Shown here: positions 6,611 to 47,224 of the stretch, one piece after another
Position numbering within the stretch: the stretch's first letter is position 1
Layout of the letters: every line of letters starts with the position of its first letter
NCBI RefSeq assembly: GCF_009914755.1
Contig: NC_060927.1
DNA from: the human T2T-CHM13v2.0 reference genome, Homo sapiens
DNA: 64,000 bases
Reading direction: 5' to 3' (one strand)
Notes under the pieces: model-generated
The model's database searches: none
What the model was told of the DNA's origin: nothing
The model's input: the letters and a program-made list of their open reading frames with translations, nothing else
Program-made: the position numbers and the translations under genes

Positions 6611-8355
6611 GACTTTGCATACCTTCATTAAAAGGTGAGGTAACATGTGGCAGAATTAATTATTAAACATAGAACAGAACCCCACCTTGTATCCATTTAA
6701 CTTTGACAATGTGATCCAGTGATTTCCAAATACGAGCCCTTTTTTTTTTTCAGCACAGTACCTAGAAAACAGCAGACTTTTCAAAAGTGCTTAAAGACCG
6801 AATGACTGAGTCTGAGTGACTGGCCTTGACATCCTTGGAGCACGACTCAGGATTAGACAGGTGCAGCTGATAATTGTGTGTGACCATTTCTCAGGTCTCA
6901 CCATCCACAGGACAGACACATTACCTTATATTTCCATGCAGACAACCTGTAAAAAGCCAGTCAACCTTTTTCTTGTGCAAATATTATCCCACAGTTAGAT
7001 TTCTAAAAACAATTGCCTGGAAGTCAATTTTAAAAGTAAATACTCAACTTTACTCTTGAGTAAATAAAGAAGCAACTTCAGGGTTTGGAGAAATACTCCA
7101 ATAATATTTCAAGATAAAACTGTTAAGGTAAGAACTCTGAAATGAGTTTTATGAGATTTATGCAACAATTTGGTGTTTATCATAAACTGCCAGGATGCTG
7201 ATCTTTATTTTTAAAATTTTTTCACCCTCATTTTTTTCTGTAATAGCATTCTAGGTACTAATTTACCATCCTCACATTTCCCTAACTCCCACTGGTTTTC
7301 TGAAAATTGAGGAAAATTGATGGCTATATTTTTTGACATGTAGGACTATACTCAGATTTTCATTTACAGCTCTGGCTCATGGCTGTATTTCTGAATCACA
7401 TTTCCTTAAGTAGGCACTCTCTTTTGTGACCTCTCCTTCACTTCATATTCAGGAGCAATCAAGACTGACACCTTAATAATAATAAGAAACAGCCAGTGGA
7501 ATGTGTGGAAGAGATATAAAGAAAGGTAAAAACTCTCTTGGGCACTATTATTTCACTCAAATATAATTTAGCTAGTTTTGGTAGATTGTTGAAGCAACTG
7601 TTGATCTTAAAAAATGATTATTGATGAAGTATTAGTAAATTAGCCAGAAATATGTAGAGTTGTGCTAATGGTAATGCTATCAAAAACTTATAGTCAAGTG
7701 CTTCCTGATATTGAACTCTTCCACTCTAAATTTTGATATTTACAAATGTGGTAAATGTTATTCCCTTGCTTGTGCCAAGAACCTACAAATACTCTAGTAT
7801 ACTCTTAACATGAGAAGAAATAGGACAATTACTTCCTTTCTTACCAATTCACCTTTTATGTGATAAAGAAAAAAATAATGATAGATTGCAATGAACATCT
7901 TAGAACCTATTAAAATGAAGTACAAATGAGGATAAAAATATGCACAATATCTAACTCTTGAGAATTGGATAGTTAGGGTTAAGAAAAGGATGATGAAAAA
8001 CTGACTTTAAGACATTATTTAAAACTCTTTCTGTCTCATACTGACTGGAATGATTGATGATGCTACCACCATTGACAATGAGAGTTTGAGAAGAGGTGAG
8101 TCACTTTTAATGGTGTAGGTTCAGACTCAGATCATCTACAAATGAACTTGTGTTGCTATTTCCTTATTTTATACATTAAAAAAATCAATTCCAGGAATAT
8201 AAATTATTTGTACCATTGAATTTCAACTTACTTTCTGGTAGCAGAGACATGATAAATGCTGCATTACATAGTTGTATTGATGGTCTGAAATCCTTAAACG
8301 ATAGAGGAGAGCACATACCAGCAGTTTCCGGCAAGTCTTTAAAAACAGACTTCTA

Positions 8356-8579
<224 letters not shown>

Positions 8580-9809
8580 CTAGAAAACAACCTGAGATGC
8601 TTCTTCAAAATGGTTGTTACTTCAGTGAAAACAAACAGCTACCTTATGAAGCCAGTGACTTATGATAATGACATAACTTTGTTGCCATCATCAATAACAA
8701 CAACAGAAACATGAATATATTCTTTTGACAATTTCCGTCTTGCTCTCTTATGCATTTCAGCCTCATACCAACCCTAAGGGAATGGGAAATATGTATTGTT
8801 TTGCTTAATCTTCATCCCACTTTCCCACTGTCATCAATTCAGGAGACCAGACTAGTTTGAGAAAATACACAGGAGAGCAAACACAAGTCTGTGTTGCCAT
8901 TTCCTGCATGAGCAGACAGAGCTACAAAAATCTAGGCTATGTGCATTCCTTAAGAAGCTGAAAAGCTCTTGGATAGGAGCGACTATATTGCATTCTGCTT
9001 TGGGTGTCCACTAACTGGCGAAATTCCTACGATATTAAATTGTTTGCTAAACAAACGAATGAGTAAAAATCATTTATAAACTACATTACACAAACAATTT
9101 AAGAGTAGCCTTTCCTTTCTTGCCTTGGTTCTTTGGACCCTCACAAATCAGCATCTTCATCTTACTTTGTTGGAACACTGGAACACTGCCATCTCTTCAT
9201 CCTCTAAGGCCTAGGATCTTGCAAAAGTTAGAGTAGGAGGTCTACATACCCTTGACATGTTAATGAAAAATAAATTCTGGGACCTCTGCTTAATATAAAG
9301 AATTTTATCTAAGGATATTAGAATTTTATCTTTAATATTCACAAGTGCAGTTGATCCTCATTATTCATGGATTCTATATTTGCAAACTTGCCTATTTGCT
9401 AAAATTTATTTGCAACCCCCACATCAATACCCTAGGCAAGCTTTTAAGATCATTCTCAAACATGCACGGAGAAGTGAAAATTTGATTCTCCCAATACACA
9501 TATTCACAGTTGAGATAGAACAAGGTTATGCACTGCCTTTTTGTTTCAGCAAGTATCTTTTTCATGATCTGTTTAGTGCTGCTTTTTTTGCATATTTGTG
9601 CTTTTTGTTGATAATTCCACTGTCTAAAATGGTCCCTTAGCATAATGCCAAAGTGCCGTCTGGTGTTCCTACATACAAAAAGGCTGTGCTGTGCCTTACT
9701 GAGAAAAAACCATGGGTTAAGTAAGCTTTGTTTAGGCACGAGTTAAGAGTGCTCTTGGCCCTAAGTTTAATATGAATCACAAACGTATATTAAATAAAGT
9801 GTCTTTAAC

Positions 9810-39050: not shown

Positions 39051-39498
39051 GTATAAGCTAAAGCAGAAAGTAAAAGGGAACATTTAAGAATAAATGGGAT
39101 TTTTCAGTATGTTAGTTGTTTTTGTTATCATTATTTTTGTTATGATTTATTTTGTTATCATTATTATTCTGAGGTGCTTCCTAAGAAGAATTCTGTACAG
39201 CACCAGTGTATACCTACCACAAATATCTGAAAATTCCCTTATACACTGGGAAATTTAAAAATAATAGAAAATCCAGAATTCATCATACTTAATAATGGTG
39301 TCAGTGTCTACCTGTAAGACTAAGTAGTGGAGAAAATTCTATATCGATTTTTTGGAATAAAATTTGTGCTGTGGGTGTAGGGATTGTAGCAAGACAAGCC
39401 ACAGACAAAACCCCTCAGACACCGAGTTAAAGAAGGAAGGGCTTTATTCAGCTGAGAGCTTTGGTAAGACTCACGTCTCCAACAACCAAGCTCACCGG

Positions 39499-41017
39499 CT
39501 GGATAAAAAATGAAAAGGATCCAGTCCACCTTCAGAAAGAAAAAATGGCCCTTCCTGTACTAAGGGACAATGTAAACCCTTAGAGCTAGTAATTACCAGT
39601 CCCCTTGATCCTTGCTGGAAGAAAGGGGAGCATGTGTGACCTTAGGAATCGATGGGGCTGGACTGAATCCTTGAGTAAATATCTTGGTTTGAGAAGAAGT
39701 TTACAAATGCTCTCCTGAACCGGTGTTTCAAACTTTCTATGATGAACTAAATGTGCCAGTACCAGAAATTCCAGGAAAAACAAGAAATTTGTTTTTGCAA
39801 TTAGCCGAGCATGTAGCCCAGTCTCTCAACATCACTTCTTGCTGTGTATGTGGAGGAACTGTAATGGGAGATCAATGGCCACGGGAAGCCTGAGAATTAG
39901 TACCTACAGACCCAGTTCCTGATGAATTCCTGGCTCAAAAGAATCACCCTGATAATTTCTAGGTCCTAAAAGCCTCAATTATTGGACAATATTGCATAGC
40001 TAGAGAAGGAAAGTAATTAACTCACCCCGTAGGATGACTTAGTTGTCTGGGACAGAAACTGTATAATGGTACCACAAAAACAGTCACTTGGTGGAGTTCA
40101 AATCACACAGAGAGGAATCCATTTAGTAAATTCCCAAAGTTGCAAACCATGGGGACCCACCTGGAGTCCCACCAGGACTGGACAGCCCCCATTGGATTAT
40201 ACTGGATATGTAGGCATAGAGCTTACGCCAAATTACCTGACGAATGGGCAGGTAGTTGTGTTATTGGCACTATTAAACCATCTTTCTTCCTACTGCCCAT
40301 AAAAGCAGGTGAACTCCTGGGCTTCCCTGTCTATGCTTCCCGCAAAAAGAGAAGCATAGCTATAGGAAGTTGGAAAGATGATGAATGGCCCCCTGAGAGA
40401 ATCATACAATATTATGGGCCTGCTACTTGGGCACAAGACGGCTTGTGGGTTTACCGGACCCCCATTTACATGATCAACTGAATCATATGGTTACAAGCTG
40501 TCTTAGAAATAATCATTAATAAAACCGGCAGAGCCTTGACTATTCTGGCCCAGCAAGAAACTCAGATGAGAAATGCTATGTATCAAAATGGATTGGCTCT
40601 CAACTACTTGCTAGCAGCTGAAGGAGGGGTCTGTGGGAAATTTAACCTTACTGATTGCTGTCTACACATAGATGATCAAGGGCAAGCAGTTGAAAGTTGA
40701 AGACATAGTTAGAGATATGACAAAACTGGCACATGTGCCCTTACAAGTGTGGCATGGATTTGATCATGGGGCCATGTTTGGAAAATGGTTCCCAGTGCTA
40801 GGAGGATTTGAAACTCTTATCATAGGAGTTATAATAGTAATAGGAACCTGCTTACTGCTCCCTTGTTTGCTACCCGTACTTCTTCAAATGATAAAAAGCT
40901 TCATTGCTACCTTAGCTCACTAAAATGCTTCAGCACAGGTGTACTATATGAATCACTATCGATCTGTCTTGCAAGAAGACACGGGTAGTGAGAATGAAAG
41001 TGAGAACTCCCACTATT
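39499..41017 (+). pseudogene. Gamma-type ERV env remnant (ERV3/HERV-E/Harlequin-like)
   Basis: Furin site [20 protein letters not shown], immunosuppressive domain [19 protein letters not shown]6CC and a hydrophobic TM segment; multiple stops and frameshifts; N-terminus missing. Confidence 0.9.
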
Positions 41018-41042
41018 GAGTGAGATTCTCAAAGGGGGGGAA

Positions 41043-41501
41043 TAAGGGAGGAGACCACCCCCATATTGTCTTATGCCCAGTTTCTGCCTCCAAAGAAAGA
41101 AGTAACAACTAAAAGGCAGAAATGAAATCCACAAGCAGACAGCCTGACGCCACACCCTGGGCCTGATAGTTAAAGATCGACCCCTGACTTAATAGGTTAT
41201 GTTATCTATAGACTACAGGCATTATATAGAAAAGCACTGTGAAAATCCCTGTCCTGTTCTGTTCTGTTCTAATTACTGGTGCATGCCACCACCAGTCACG
41301 TACCCCCTGCTTGCTCAATTGATCACGATCCTCTCACACGGACCCCCTTAGAGTTGTAAACCCTTAAAAGGGACAGGAATTGCTCACTCGGGGAGCTCGG
41401 TTGTTGGAGACGTGAGTCTTGCCAAAACTCCCGGCTGAATAAAGCCCTTCCTTCTTTAACTCGGTGTCTGAGTAGTTTTGTCTGTGGCTTGTCCTGCTAC
41501 A
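41043..41501 (+). promoter_or_regulatory. Complete LTR2 (U3-R-U5), candidate promoter and poly(A) site
   Basis: taagggaggagaccacccc...tcctgctaca; TATA-like TTAAAA at 41364; AATAAA at 41438. Confidence 0.75.
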
Positions 41502-41544
41502 GGATAACATCAGCAACCTTAGAGTAACCGGTCATGGAGTTAAT

Positions 41545-41780
41545 GCTGTACAGCATAGTAGTTGAAAGGCATGAGTGCTTCAATCATCTTGCTTGGGTTT
41601 AAATCACAGTTCTGCCACTTACAAAGTGTGTTACTTTGGGCAAGTTACTTAACTTTCCGTGCCTCCATTTTTTTCTGTCTGTAAAGAGAGATAGCAATAG
41701 TACCTACTTCATGGGGTACTATGCAAAGGTCTTAGAATACTATCTGGCACATAGTAAACATTCAATATGTGTTAGCTATT
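41545..41780 (+). mobile_element. MIR SINE
   Basis: ttgggcaagttacttaactttccgtgcctcca...tggcacatagtaaacattcaata. Confidence 0.8.
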
Positions 41781-46197: not shown

Positions 46198-46684
46198 TGT
46201 AGCAGGACGAGCTGCAGACAAAACCCCTCAGACACCGAGGTGTAGAAGGAAGGGTTTTATTCAGCTGGGAGCATCGGCAGACTCACGTCTCCAAAAACCG
46301 AGCTCCCCGAGTGAGCAATTCCTGTCCCTTTTAAGGACTTACAACTGTAAGGGGGTCCACGTGAAAGGGTCATGATTGATTGCGCAAGCAGGGAGTATGT
46401 GACTGGGGGCTGCATGCCCCCAGTGCATACTGATTACCAGTGCATACTGGTAATCAGAACGGAATAGAACAGGACAGGGACTTTCACAATGCTTTTCCAT
46501 ACAATGTCTGGAATCTATAGATAACATAACTGGTTAGGTCAGGTGTCGATCTTTAACCAGGCCCAGGGCGTGGCGTCCAGCTGTCTGCCTGTGGATTTCA
46601 TTTCTGCCTTTTAGTTTTTACTTCTTCTTTCTTTGGAGGCAGAAATTGGGCATAAGACAATATGAGGGGTGGTCTCCTCCCTTA
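46198..46684 (-). mobile_element. Solo LTR2-family LTR (different variant from 41043-41501)
   Basis: tgtagcaggacgagc...ggtggtctcctccctta; inserted into the L1 at gtggcta|tactaattt. Confidence 0.9.
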
Positions 46685-47224
46685 CTCATACTAATTTACA
46701 TTCCCAGCTACAATTTGTAAGGGATCTCTTTTCTCCACATCTTTACCAATAATGATTTTTGTTTTTGCTAGTAGCAATTCTAACAAGTATGAAGTGATAT
46801 CTCATTGTAATTTTGATTTGCATTTCTCTGATGATTATTGATGTTTACTACCTTTTTATATACCTATTGGCCATTTATATATCTTCTTTGATCTATTCAT
46901 GCTTTTTGCCCATTTTTAAATTGAGTTATTTGATTTTTCAGTATTGAGTTATAGGAGTTCCTTGTATATTTTGTGTATTAACCATTTATCTGATATATAA
47001 TTTGCAAATATTTTCTCCCATTCTGTAGATTGCCTTTTCACTTTGCTGATTATTTCCTTTGGTGTGAAAAATAGATCATTTGATGTAGTCTCACTTCTTT
47101 GTATTTACTTTTGTTGCCTATACATTTGTATCATTATTCAATAAACCATTGCCAAGACCAGTGTCAAGAAGCTTTTTTCTTATGCTTTCTTCTAGGATTT
47201 GTACAATGTCATGCCTTATATTTA

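What the first reader, a model, noticed from the sequence alone, without database searches (positions are those of the whole stretch)
39385..41501. Provirus integrated with two U5 ends: inverted strong-stop-like R-U5 joined to env, with a clean 4-bp TSD
Seen: 39385-39493 (109 bp) is the reverse complement of 41393-41501, with about 8 mismatches by hand count, so the element has terminal INVERTED repeats. It has no 5' LTR, gag or pol. The inverted piece joins through ~5 nt (accgg) into mid-env. GGAT flanks both ends (39381-39384, 41502-41505). The inverted piece shares the variants of this element's own 3' LTR (gttaaagaag, ccaacaacc), not those of the solo LTR at 46198. Its inner end lies ~30 nt downstream of the TATA-like TTAAAA (41364), near the expected start of R. 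Established: minus-strand strong-stop DNA spans R-U5, and gammaretroviral integrase makes short TSDs. Inference: a strong-stop DNA transferred onto nascent minus-strand DNA in env and primed plus-strand synthesis. That would give a linear DNA with two U5 att ends, which integrase then inserted. This LTR's U3 starts TA rather than TG, so U5 may be the better integrase substrate.
Basis: partly seen in the sequence, partly recalled or inferred. Interest (0 to 1): 0.85.

Follow-up and report, generated by a model that had tools for sequence, protein, structure and literature searches.

The report
Retrovirus fossil with two tail ends
A 2.1-kb remnant of the extinct human retrovirus HERV-E carries the same "tail" (U5) end at both tips in mirror orientation, most likely because a faulty DNA copy of the virus was inserted whole, and a few similar fossils lie elsewhere in the genome.

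Summary
Window 39385-39497 is the reverse complement of 41389-41501 (113 nt, 92%). Its outer end is exactly the LTR2 U5 tip, and GGAT flanks both ends. The interior, 39500-41501, is one uninterrupted piece of HERV-E from mid-env to the 3' LTR. There is no 5' LTR, gag or pol. The inner end of the inverted arm lies within about 0-5 nt of the inferred start of R. Two nucleotides (GC) at the junction are unassigned.

Best reading (0.78): one aberrant reverse-transcription product with two U5 ends, inserted by integrase with the family's usual 4-bp duplication. A search with a 15-nt U5-tip pattern, with at least 530 of the 602 hits seen, found three more independent LTR2 elements with outward-facing U5 tips:
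- chr16: perfect TCAT/TCAT flanks.
- chr1: inserted in an Alu whose sequence is contiguous across a 4-nt duplication.
- chr2: far end destroyed.
Two of these three also have a junction at the R start.

Not testable here: the primate empty site and the mapped transcription start. I found no description of U5/U5 endogenous proviruses in four literature searches. I rate it a new variant of a known kind, of moderate interest.

The parts
39381..39384 (.). Left copy of the 4-bp target-site duplication, GGAT
   Evidence: Read directly. It is identical to 41502-41505. A 4-bp duplication is the family norm.
39385..39497 (-). Inverted R-U5 arm. It runs from the U5 tip (TGTAGCA...) inward to about the start of R, in minus-strand polarity.
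   Evidence: 113 nt, 92% complementary to 41389-41501. It maps to reference provirus LTR positions 8881->8770, equivalent to 592->481.
39498..39499 (.). Two junction bases (GC) assignable to neither the LTR nor env
   Evidence: Three-way LTR alignment and comparison with 9 env copies.
39500..40923 (+). HERV-E env fragment: the C-terminal part of SU, the RKKR cleavage motif and TM with its membrane anchor. It is broken by several stops and frame changes.
   Evidence: 88-93% identity to 8 other HERV-E env copies, starting exactly at 39500; a ninth copy, internally deleted, matches in two pieces at 83-91%. The TM piece 40482-40697 hits filovirus GP2, syncytin-2 and HERV-FRD TM ectodomains (best E 4e-7). 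Of 4 pieces scanned against Pfam, 1 gave TLV_coat below the cut-off (16.3 against 22.5 bits) and 3 gave nothing.
40924..41042 (+). Spacer between env and the LTR, ending in the polypurine tract (about 41031-41042)
   Evidence: Read directly. It is contiguous with env and the LTR in the single alignment to the reference provirus.
41043..41501 (+). Complete 3' LTR (LTR2 type). U3 runs from TAAGGG at 41043. The TATA-like TTAAAAG is at 41364-41370, and the inferred R start is about 41389-41393. AATAAA is at 41438-41443, and U5 ends in CA at 41501.
   Evidence: LTR boundaries were defined from 11 other copies and by alignment to the reference LTRs. The R start is inferred, not mapped.
41389..41501 (+). 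Right arm of the inverted repeat: the R-U5 part of the 3' LTR
41502..41505 (.). Right copy of the target-site duplication, GGAT
   Evidence: Read directly.

Best explanation
This is the fossil of a single integration event. The inserted DNA was a defective 2117-bp HERV-E reverse-transcription product whose two termini were both U5 ends.

Proposed course of events:
1. A complete minus-strand strong-stop DNA (R-U5, made from the tRNA primer to the capped 5' end of the RNA) failed to make the normal first jump to the 3' R.
2. It became joined by a non-homologous switch, with 2 extra bases, to a minus-strand DNA that had already been copied from U5 back through U3 into mid-env. That second strand probably came from the second packaged genome.
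3. Mutual extension of the two 3' ends gave a blunt linear duplex: inverted R-U5, then env-PPT-U3-R-U5.
4. Integrase treated the two U5 tips as its two ends and inserted the molecule with the normal 4-bp duplication (GGAT).

Shown: the anatomy, the exact tip, the flanks, the family's duplication length, and the existence of other U5/U5 LTR2 inserts. Inferred: the order of events in reverse transcription, the identity of the arm as strong-stop DNA, and the use of a second genome. The element has no function today.
For: (1) The inverted repeat of 113 nt at 92% ends exactly at the LTR tip on the left. The flanks are direct GGAT repeats and not part of the palindrome.

(2) LTR2 copies make 4-bp duplications: perfect in 6 of 11 other copies, 3 of 4 bases in 2 of 11, absent in 3 of 11. 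A chance 4-mer match is 1 in 256.

(3) The interior is one colinear piece of provirus, 6904-8882. No other HERV-E DNA lies nearby, and both flanks are unique or non-HERV.

(4) The arm's inner end (41389) lies 25 nt after the T of TTAAAAG. The chr2 and chr1 elements have junctions at the same LTR landmark, GAGCTC plus 2 nt, against plus 4 nt here.

(5) The pattern recurs. In at least 530 of 602 U5-tip hits examined, 5 places (4 independent events) have two outward-facing tips within 12 kb.
- chr16: 329-nt arms at 97%, flanks TCAT/TCAT.
- chr1: a 276-bp R-U5 mosaic in an Alu that is contiguous across a 4-nt overlap, CTAC/CTAT.
- chr2: a deleted provirus headed by a 52-nt inverted U5 tip.
- Only 1 inward-facing pair was seen, and that is a provirus nested in a provirus.

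(6) Arm divergence of 8% matches the 7% between the two LTRs of an ordinary HERV-E provirus. So the arms are as old as the family's activity.

(7) Precedent for the separate steps: HIV-1 proviruses whose deletion junction sits at the 5' end of R, read as aberrant transfer of completed strong-stop DNA (PMC12657518, passages seen); HIV-1 proviruses with asymmetric LTRs and inversions (PMC9278108, passages seen).
Against: - The orthologous empty site could not be examined. The flanks are unique in this genome, so there is no paralogous check either.
- The transcription start of LTR2 is not mapped in anything I could read.
- The arm runs 2-4 nt further into U3 than the R start inferred from the chr1 and chr2 elements.
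- Two junction bases are unexplained, and there is no microhomology at the junction.
- The two arms are not each other's nearest relatives and share no private variant. Common origin is therefore not shown by sequence. This result is what a star-like family would give, and it does not contradict common origin.
- A second LTR2-type solo LTR lies only 4.7 kb away and lacks a duplication (GCTA against CTCA). The neighbourhood may therefore have had more than one event.
- The pair search was merged by eye, missed up to 72 of the 602 hits, and needs exact 15-mers at both tips.
Confidence: 0.78

Rival explanations
1. The same single integration of a two-U5 DNA, but made by intramolecular snap-back. 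The growing minus strand, paused in env, folded back and primed on its own 5' R-U5 region. No free strong-stop DNA was involved.
For: The chr16 element is best read this way. Its arm ends inside U3, 329 nt from the tip, and its plus part starts 10 nt inside the polypurine tract. So polarity switches at places other than the R start do occur in this family. The chr1 element's right arm is only 38 nt.
Against: After the first jump the minus strand is continuous across R/U3, so nothing marks the R start. Landing within a few nt of it would be chance, roughly 10 positions out of about 2000. Yet junctions at that landmark recur in 3 of 4 independent elements.
Confidence: 0.12
2. A normal provirus, flanked by GGAT, was rearranged later at the DNA level. 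A fold-back or replication template switch replaced everything from the 5' LTR to mid-env with an inverted copy of R-U5.
For: It keeps the GGAT duplication without needing an unusual integration. Inverted duplications do arise in genomes. A nearby solo LTR without a duplication hints at local rearrangement.
Against: The inverted copy would have to end exactly at the last base of the LTR and abut the left GGAT exactly. A host repair process has no reason to respect that boundary. The palindrome does not extend into the flanks. The chr16 and chr1 elements show the same exact tips with their own 4-bp duplications.
Confidence: 0.06
3. Two independent HERV-E insertions in opposite orientation, later fused by a deletion running from the R start of the minus-orientation LTR to mid-env of the plus-orientation provirus.
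For: HERV-E DNA is locally dense. There is a solo LTR 4.7 kb away and a provirus about 105 kb away on the same chromosome. A nested HERV-E in HERV-E exists on chr3 at 135.04 Mb.
Against: It needs the outer flank of one insertion to equal the outer flank of the other by chance (1 in 256). It also needs a deletion endpoint at the R start. No leftover U3 of the minus-orientation LTR or host DNA lies between the pieces.
Confidence: 0.04

Closest known systems
Ordinary HERV-E (LTR2-type) proviruses and solo LTRs
   Same: The same LTR with TA...CA boundaries, the same 4-bp duplication, and env about 90% identical to other copies.
   Different: The terminal repeats are inverted, not direct. The left end is a U5 tip instead of a U3 tip. 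There is no 5' LTR, primer-binding site, gag or pol.
Moloney MLV provirus integrated through two U3 ends with inverted LTRs (Colicelli and Goff, J Virol 1988). Recalled; the paper was not seen, and its title phrase was found in no paper of the searched library.
   Same: Integrase joins two copies of the same LTR end, giving a provirus with inverted terminal repeats.
   Different: That was an experimental isolate using U3/U3. This one is U5/U5, in the germ line, tens of millions of years old, and truncated to env plus LTR.
HIV-1 defective proviruses from aberrant strand transfer, with asymmetric LTRs or inversions (PMC12657518 and PMC9278108; passages seen)
   Same: Junctions at the 5' end of R are read there as completed strong-stop DNA that transferred to the wrong place. 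Proviruses with unequal LTRs and internal inversions are nevertheless integrated.
   Different: Those transfers keep polarity, giving deletions, and the proviruses keep a U3 end and a U5 end. Here polarity flips and both ends are U5. The passages I saw do not describe a U5/U5 provirus.
Self-priming of minus-strand strong-stop DNA (review PMC6088434; search listing and start of abstract only)
   Same: The 3' end of strong-stop DNA is used as a primer on a DNA template instead of transferring to the 3' R.
   Different: Classical self-priming folds on the R hairpin and gives dead-end products. Here the acceptor is env DNA 1.9 kb away, and the product was integrated.

Membership tests
HERV-E / LTR2 endogenous retrovirus | LTR of the family, with its characteristic ends (TAAGGG...CTGCTACA) | tested here: met
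   The 3' LTR at 41043-41501 aligns end to end with the reference LTRs. The same ends are seen in 11 other copies.
HERV-E / LTR2 endogenous retrovirus | Internal sequence homologous to HERV-E env | tested here: met
   88-93% identity over about 1570 nt to 8 other copies. A ninth, internally deleted copy matches in pieces. There is one colinear alignment to provirus positions 6904-8882.
HERV-E / LTR2 endogenous retrovirus | 4-bp target-site duplication | tested here: met
   GGAT/GGAT. Family baseline: 6 of 11 perfect.
Canonical provirus (direct LTRs, U3 end on the left, U5 end on the right) | Two LTRs in direct orientation flanking gag-pol-env | tested here: not met
   The only left-hand LTR material is 113 nt of inverted R-U5. 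There is no gag or pol.
Integrase-mediated insertion | Both 3' ends terminate in the conserved CA, and the flanks carry a duplication of the family's length | tested here: met
   TGTAGCA... on the left and ...TGCTACA on the right, each abutting GGAT.
Integrase-mediated insertion | Empty site with contiguous flanks and a single copy of the duplicated 4-mer | not testable with these tools
   No primate genomes are held, and the flanks are unique in this genome. The feature is shown only for the analogous chr1 element inside an Alu.
Arm derived from minus-strand strong-stop DNA | The arm spans exactly from the U5 tip to the 5' end of R (the cap site) | tested here: inconclusive
   The outer end is exact. 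The inner end is 25 nt after the TATA-like box and 2-4 nt beyond the R start inferred from junctions in the chr1 and chr2 elements. No mapped start was available.
Arms made in one reverse-transcription event | The arms are sister sequences sharing private variants | tested here: inconclusive
   There is no shared private variant, and 14 of 20 other copies are as close or closer. Quartet counts are 128 against 106 and 102. This is expected for a star-like family, so the test is uninformative.

The most novel reading that the evidence does not exclude
HERV-E left a small, recurrent class of 'double-tail' insertions in the germ line: DNAs with a U5 end at both tips. These are preserved intermediates of failed reverse transcription, such as mis-transferred strong-stop DNA, snap-back minus strands and read-around products, which integrase still accepted. 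If so, the class is a minable fossil record of the error spectrum of an extinct virus's reverse transcriptase. It would also show that two U5 ends suffice for germ-line integration. The family's unusual TA (not TG) U3 tip may have favoured U5.
Probability: 0.5. Interest if true: 0.7.

Novelty: new variant of a known kind. Interest (0 to 1): 0.6.

Why it matters
Textbook proviruses have one U3 end and one U5 end. Integration through two identical ends is known to me only from one experimental MLV isolate (recalled, not seen) and from test-tube assays.

These elements would show that two-U5 integration happened naturally and repeatedly in the primate germ line. They would also show that the junctions inside such elements record where reverse transcription went wrong, including capture of complete strong-stop DNA.

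That gives a way to read the replication errors of an extinct virus from genome sequence alone. It also locates the start of R in an LTR family widely used as a host promoter.

In practice, such elements are annotated as unrelated LTR fragments in opposite orientation. They could therefore mislead dating by LTR divergence or counts of solo LTRs.

Tried and rejected
(1) Paralogous empty site. Both 300-nt flanks were searched in the whole genome. The left flank matched only itself plus one weak 61-nt hit. The right flank matched itself plus 39 partial hits to an old interspersed repeat starting about 88 nt from the insert, which I call MIR from recall. No empty-site surrogate exists.

(2) Other copies of this junction. 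Of 307 candidates, 40 were scored, and only the window itself spans LTR and env. The element was not copied or duplicated.

(3) Sister test of the two arms against 20 other LTR2 copies. It was uninformative.

I listed the tips by sub-pattern instead and merged the lists by eye. Up to 72 of the 602 hits were never seen, and tips with any change in the 15-mer are missed, so 4 independent elements is a lower bound.

(5) The chr2 element first looked like a 218-bp insert without a duplication. Its 'flank' proved to be HERV-E leader, so it is the head of a deleted provirus. Its 3' tip is cut off beside L1-like sequence (my label), and its duplication cannot be tested.

(6) U3/U3 counterparts. No outward-facing pair appeared in the first 100 of 300 hits to a 24-nt U3-tip pattern. 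That search has about a quarter of the power of the U5 search, so no conclusion follows.

(7) Transcription start of LTR2. Two searches and one paper's passages (PMC2853125) gave no map for HERV-E.

(8) Literature on U5/U5 or inverted-LTR endogenous proviruses. Four searches found none. The library omits most subscription-journal papers, so this is not proof of absence.

(10) Two other odd loci were fetched (L035, L036). L035 is a provirus nested in a provirus. L036 was not resolved.

Full report
**What is there**

Window 39385-39497 and 41389-41501 are inverted copies of each other. They span 113 nt at 92%, with 9 mismatches and no gaps. The right arm is the R-U5 part of a complete LTR2-type LTR at 41043-41501. 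The left arm is the same stretch in reverse complement, and its outer end is exactly the LTR tip (TGTAGCA...). GGAT precedes the left tip (39381-39384) and follows the right tip (41502-41505). The flanks are direct repeats and do not continue the palindrome.

Against a natural full-length HERV-E provirus fetched as a ruler (L037; LTRs at 150-592 and 8437-8881), window 39500-41502 is one colinear alignment to 6904-8882 (89.9% of 2009 nt). The left arm maps to 8881->8770. The only other HERV-E DNA in the 64 kb is the solo LTR at 46198-46687. So there is no 5' LTR, primer-binding site, gag or pol.

The interior is env. Stop-to-stop ORF pieces show a furin-type RKKR site, the CX6CC region and a membrane anchor. 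The TM piece hits filovirus GP2, syncytin-2 and HERV-FRD ectodomains (best E 4e-7). Pfam gave only a sub-threshold TLV_coat match for 1 of 4 pieces. The gene is broken by several stops and frame changes.

**The junction**

In 9 of 9 other HERV-E copies, similarity to the window begins at 39500. The 50 nt upstream in those copies are env sequence unlike the window. LTR similarity runs to 39497. Two bases, GC, belong to neither side, and I see no microhomology. The junction is unique in the genome: of 307 candidates, 40 were scored, and only the window spans it.

**Family habits**

In 11 other LTR2 copies the LTR starts TAAGGG (or TAAAGG) and ends CTGCTACA (CTGCTATA in one copy). The flanks were as follows:
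- 6 of 11 carry a perfect 4-bp duplication.
- 2 of 11 match at 3 of 4 bases.
- 3 of 11 carry none.

The solo LTR at 46198 has no duplication (GCTA against CTCA). It belongs to another subfamily, with 77% identity to the reference LTR against 84-88% for this element.

**Is it one event?**

Sequence relatedness of the two arms cannot decide this:
- Among 20 of the best-matching LTR2 copies elsewhere, 14 are as close or closer to the left arm than the right arm is.
- The arms share no private variant.
- Quartet site counts are flat: 128 for arms together against 106 and 102.

That is what a star-like burst gives.

The case rests on geometry:
- An exact LTR tip abuts a 4-mer identical to the one at the other tip. 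A chance match is 1 in 256.
- The piece is colinear, with nothing left over between the parts.
- The inner breakpoint falls at a meaningful place.

Arm divergence (8%) is like the 7% between the two LTRs of the reference provirus. So the arms date from the family's active period.

**Other examples**

A 15-nt U5-tip pattern has 602 exact hits in the genome and none for the reversed control. I listed at least 530 of them and merged the lists by eye. Two tips facing outward within 12 kb occur at 5 places, which represent 4 independent events. The first is this element.

*chr16 (L034).* Arms of 329 nt at 97%, with a 164-nt spacer made of 10 nt of polypurine tract plus the 5' part of U3. The flanks are TCAT/TCAT.

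*chr1 (L031).* A 276-bp mosaic of R-U5 pieces with a 38-nt inverted right arm, sitting in an Alu. Aligned to three Alus from the window, the two flanks are contiguous with a 4-nt overlap, CTAC/CTAT. This is an empty-site proof for that element.

*chr2 (L032/L039, and its inverted duplicate L033/L038).* A deleted provirus whose head is a 52-nt inverted U5 tip, then 75 nt of gag, then R-U5-leader-gag. The same gag-to-R junction occurs twice, through a 5-nt GAGAG overlap. Its 3' LTR tip is cut off beside L1-like sequence (my label), so its duplication cannot be tested.

Only one inward-facing pair was seen. It is a provirus nested in another.

**The R start**

In this element the arm ends at 41389. 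That is 25 nt after the first T of the conserved TTAAAAG, and 4 nt upstream of the landmark GAGCTC. In the chr2 element, the R side of both gag-to-R junctions reaches GAGCTC plus 2 nt. In the chr1 element, one internal copy ends at the same GAGCTC plus 2 nt. So 3 of 4 independent elements have a junction within 2-4 nt of one LTR position. That is where a minus strand copied to the end of the RNA would stop.

From memory, the homologous motif in MLV places the cap site at the G of GAGCTC or just before it. I did not test that. No mapped HERV-E start was found. The extra 2-4 nt, plus GC, may be U3 template from a slightly upstream start, or bases added without template at the end of the RNA. I cannot tell which.

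**Mechanism**

Most likely, a completed strong-stop DNA missed the 3' R. Its 3' end met the 3' end of a minus strand already extended from U5 through U3 into env, plausibly from the co-packaged genome. The two primed on each other. The resulting duplex had a U5 end at both tips, and integrase inserted it.

It describes the same duplex.

The chr16 element shows that intramolecular snap-back at other positions also happens. For this element, that rival would leave the R-start coincidence to chance. The other two rivals both require an exact tip and matching 4-mers without integrase:
- later DNA-level rearrangement of a normal provirus;
- two insertions fused by a deletion.

**Comparison with the literature**

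HIV-1 proviruses whose deletion junction lies at the 5' end of R are read as mis-transferred complete strong-stop DNA (PMC12657518, passages). HIV-1 proviruses with unequal LTRs and inversions are common (PMC9278108, passages). Both keep one U3 end and one U5 end. An MLV provirus joined through two U3 ends is recalled from the older literature and was not seen.

Four searches for U5/U5 or inverted-LTR endogenous proviruses found nothing. The library lacks most subscription-journal papers, so this is not proof of absence.

**Verdict**

The two-U5 integration reading is well supported. The strong-stop step is plausible and indirectly supported. The substrate-preference idea is untested: a partial U3/U3 look found none in the first 100 of 300 hits, with low power. 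This is a new variant of a known kind of event, of moderate interest. It is made more interesting by recurring.

Noticed in passing
window 46198-46687 (minus strand): A solo LTR2-type LTR of a different subfamily (77% identity to the reference LTR). It has no matching 4-bp duplication (GCTA on the left, CTCA on the right). That may mean recombination between two proviruses or decay of the flanks. It lies only 4.7 kb from the element.
   Followed up: partly
L034 (G000:C16:28869423-28870844), element at locus positions 301-1123: An 823-bp LTR2 palindrome-like insert. It consists of 329 nt of inverted LTR 3' part, 10 nt of polypurine tract, then a full LTR, with perfect TCAT/TCAT flanks. The arms are 97% alike, much more than in the window's element. 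It is either younger or homogenised between arms.
   Followed up: partly
L038 (G000:C2:112186500-112196499) positions 95-2720, and its inverted duplicate L039: A deleted HERV-E provirus headed by an inverted 52-nt U5 tip. It carries the same gag-to-R junction twice (about 203 and about 1968), as if the minus strand ran to the RNA end and jumped back into gag more than once. The 3' LTR is cut at about 2715, beside L1-like sequence.
   Followed up: partly
L031 (G000:C1:206680586-206681461) positions 301-576: A 276-bp insert made only of R-U5 pieces: several partial copies in one orientation and a 38-nt inverted tip. It sits inside an Alu with a 4-nt duplication, CTAC/CTAT.
   Followed up: yes
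LTR2 copies L020, L023, L026, L027: Four of 11 LTR2 copies have GAA immediately before the TAAGGG start. Two of these have AGAA or AAAA on the other side as well. This may reflect an A-rich target preference, or occasional retention of unprocessed end bases.
   Followed up: no
L035 (G000:C3:135039368-135041037): A minus-orientation HERV-E provirus of about 7.6 kb inserted into the leader/gag region of a plus-orientation HERV-E provirus: one provirus nested in another of the same family.
   Followed up: partly
L036 (G000:C1:201424794-201426568): Two U5 tips in the same orientation 758 bp apart. The second is an isolated piece of about 55 nt after about 700 nt with no similarity to the reference provirus. 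I did not resolve it.
   Followed up: no
window about 41590-41780: An old interspersed repeat (MIR-like by recall) with many diverged copies genome-wide begins about 88 nt to the right of the insert.
   Followed up: no
G000:C3:164818889-164826638 (outside the window, about 105 kb to the right): Two same-orientation U5 tips 7.7 kb apart, presumably a further HERV-E provirus. Another tip lies at C3:165483731. The region seems locally rich in HERV-E.
   Followed up: no
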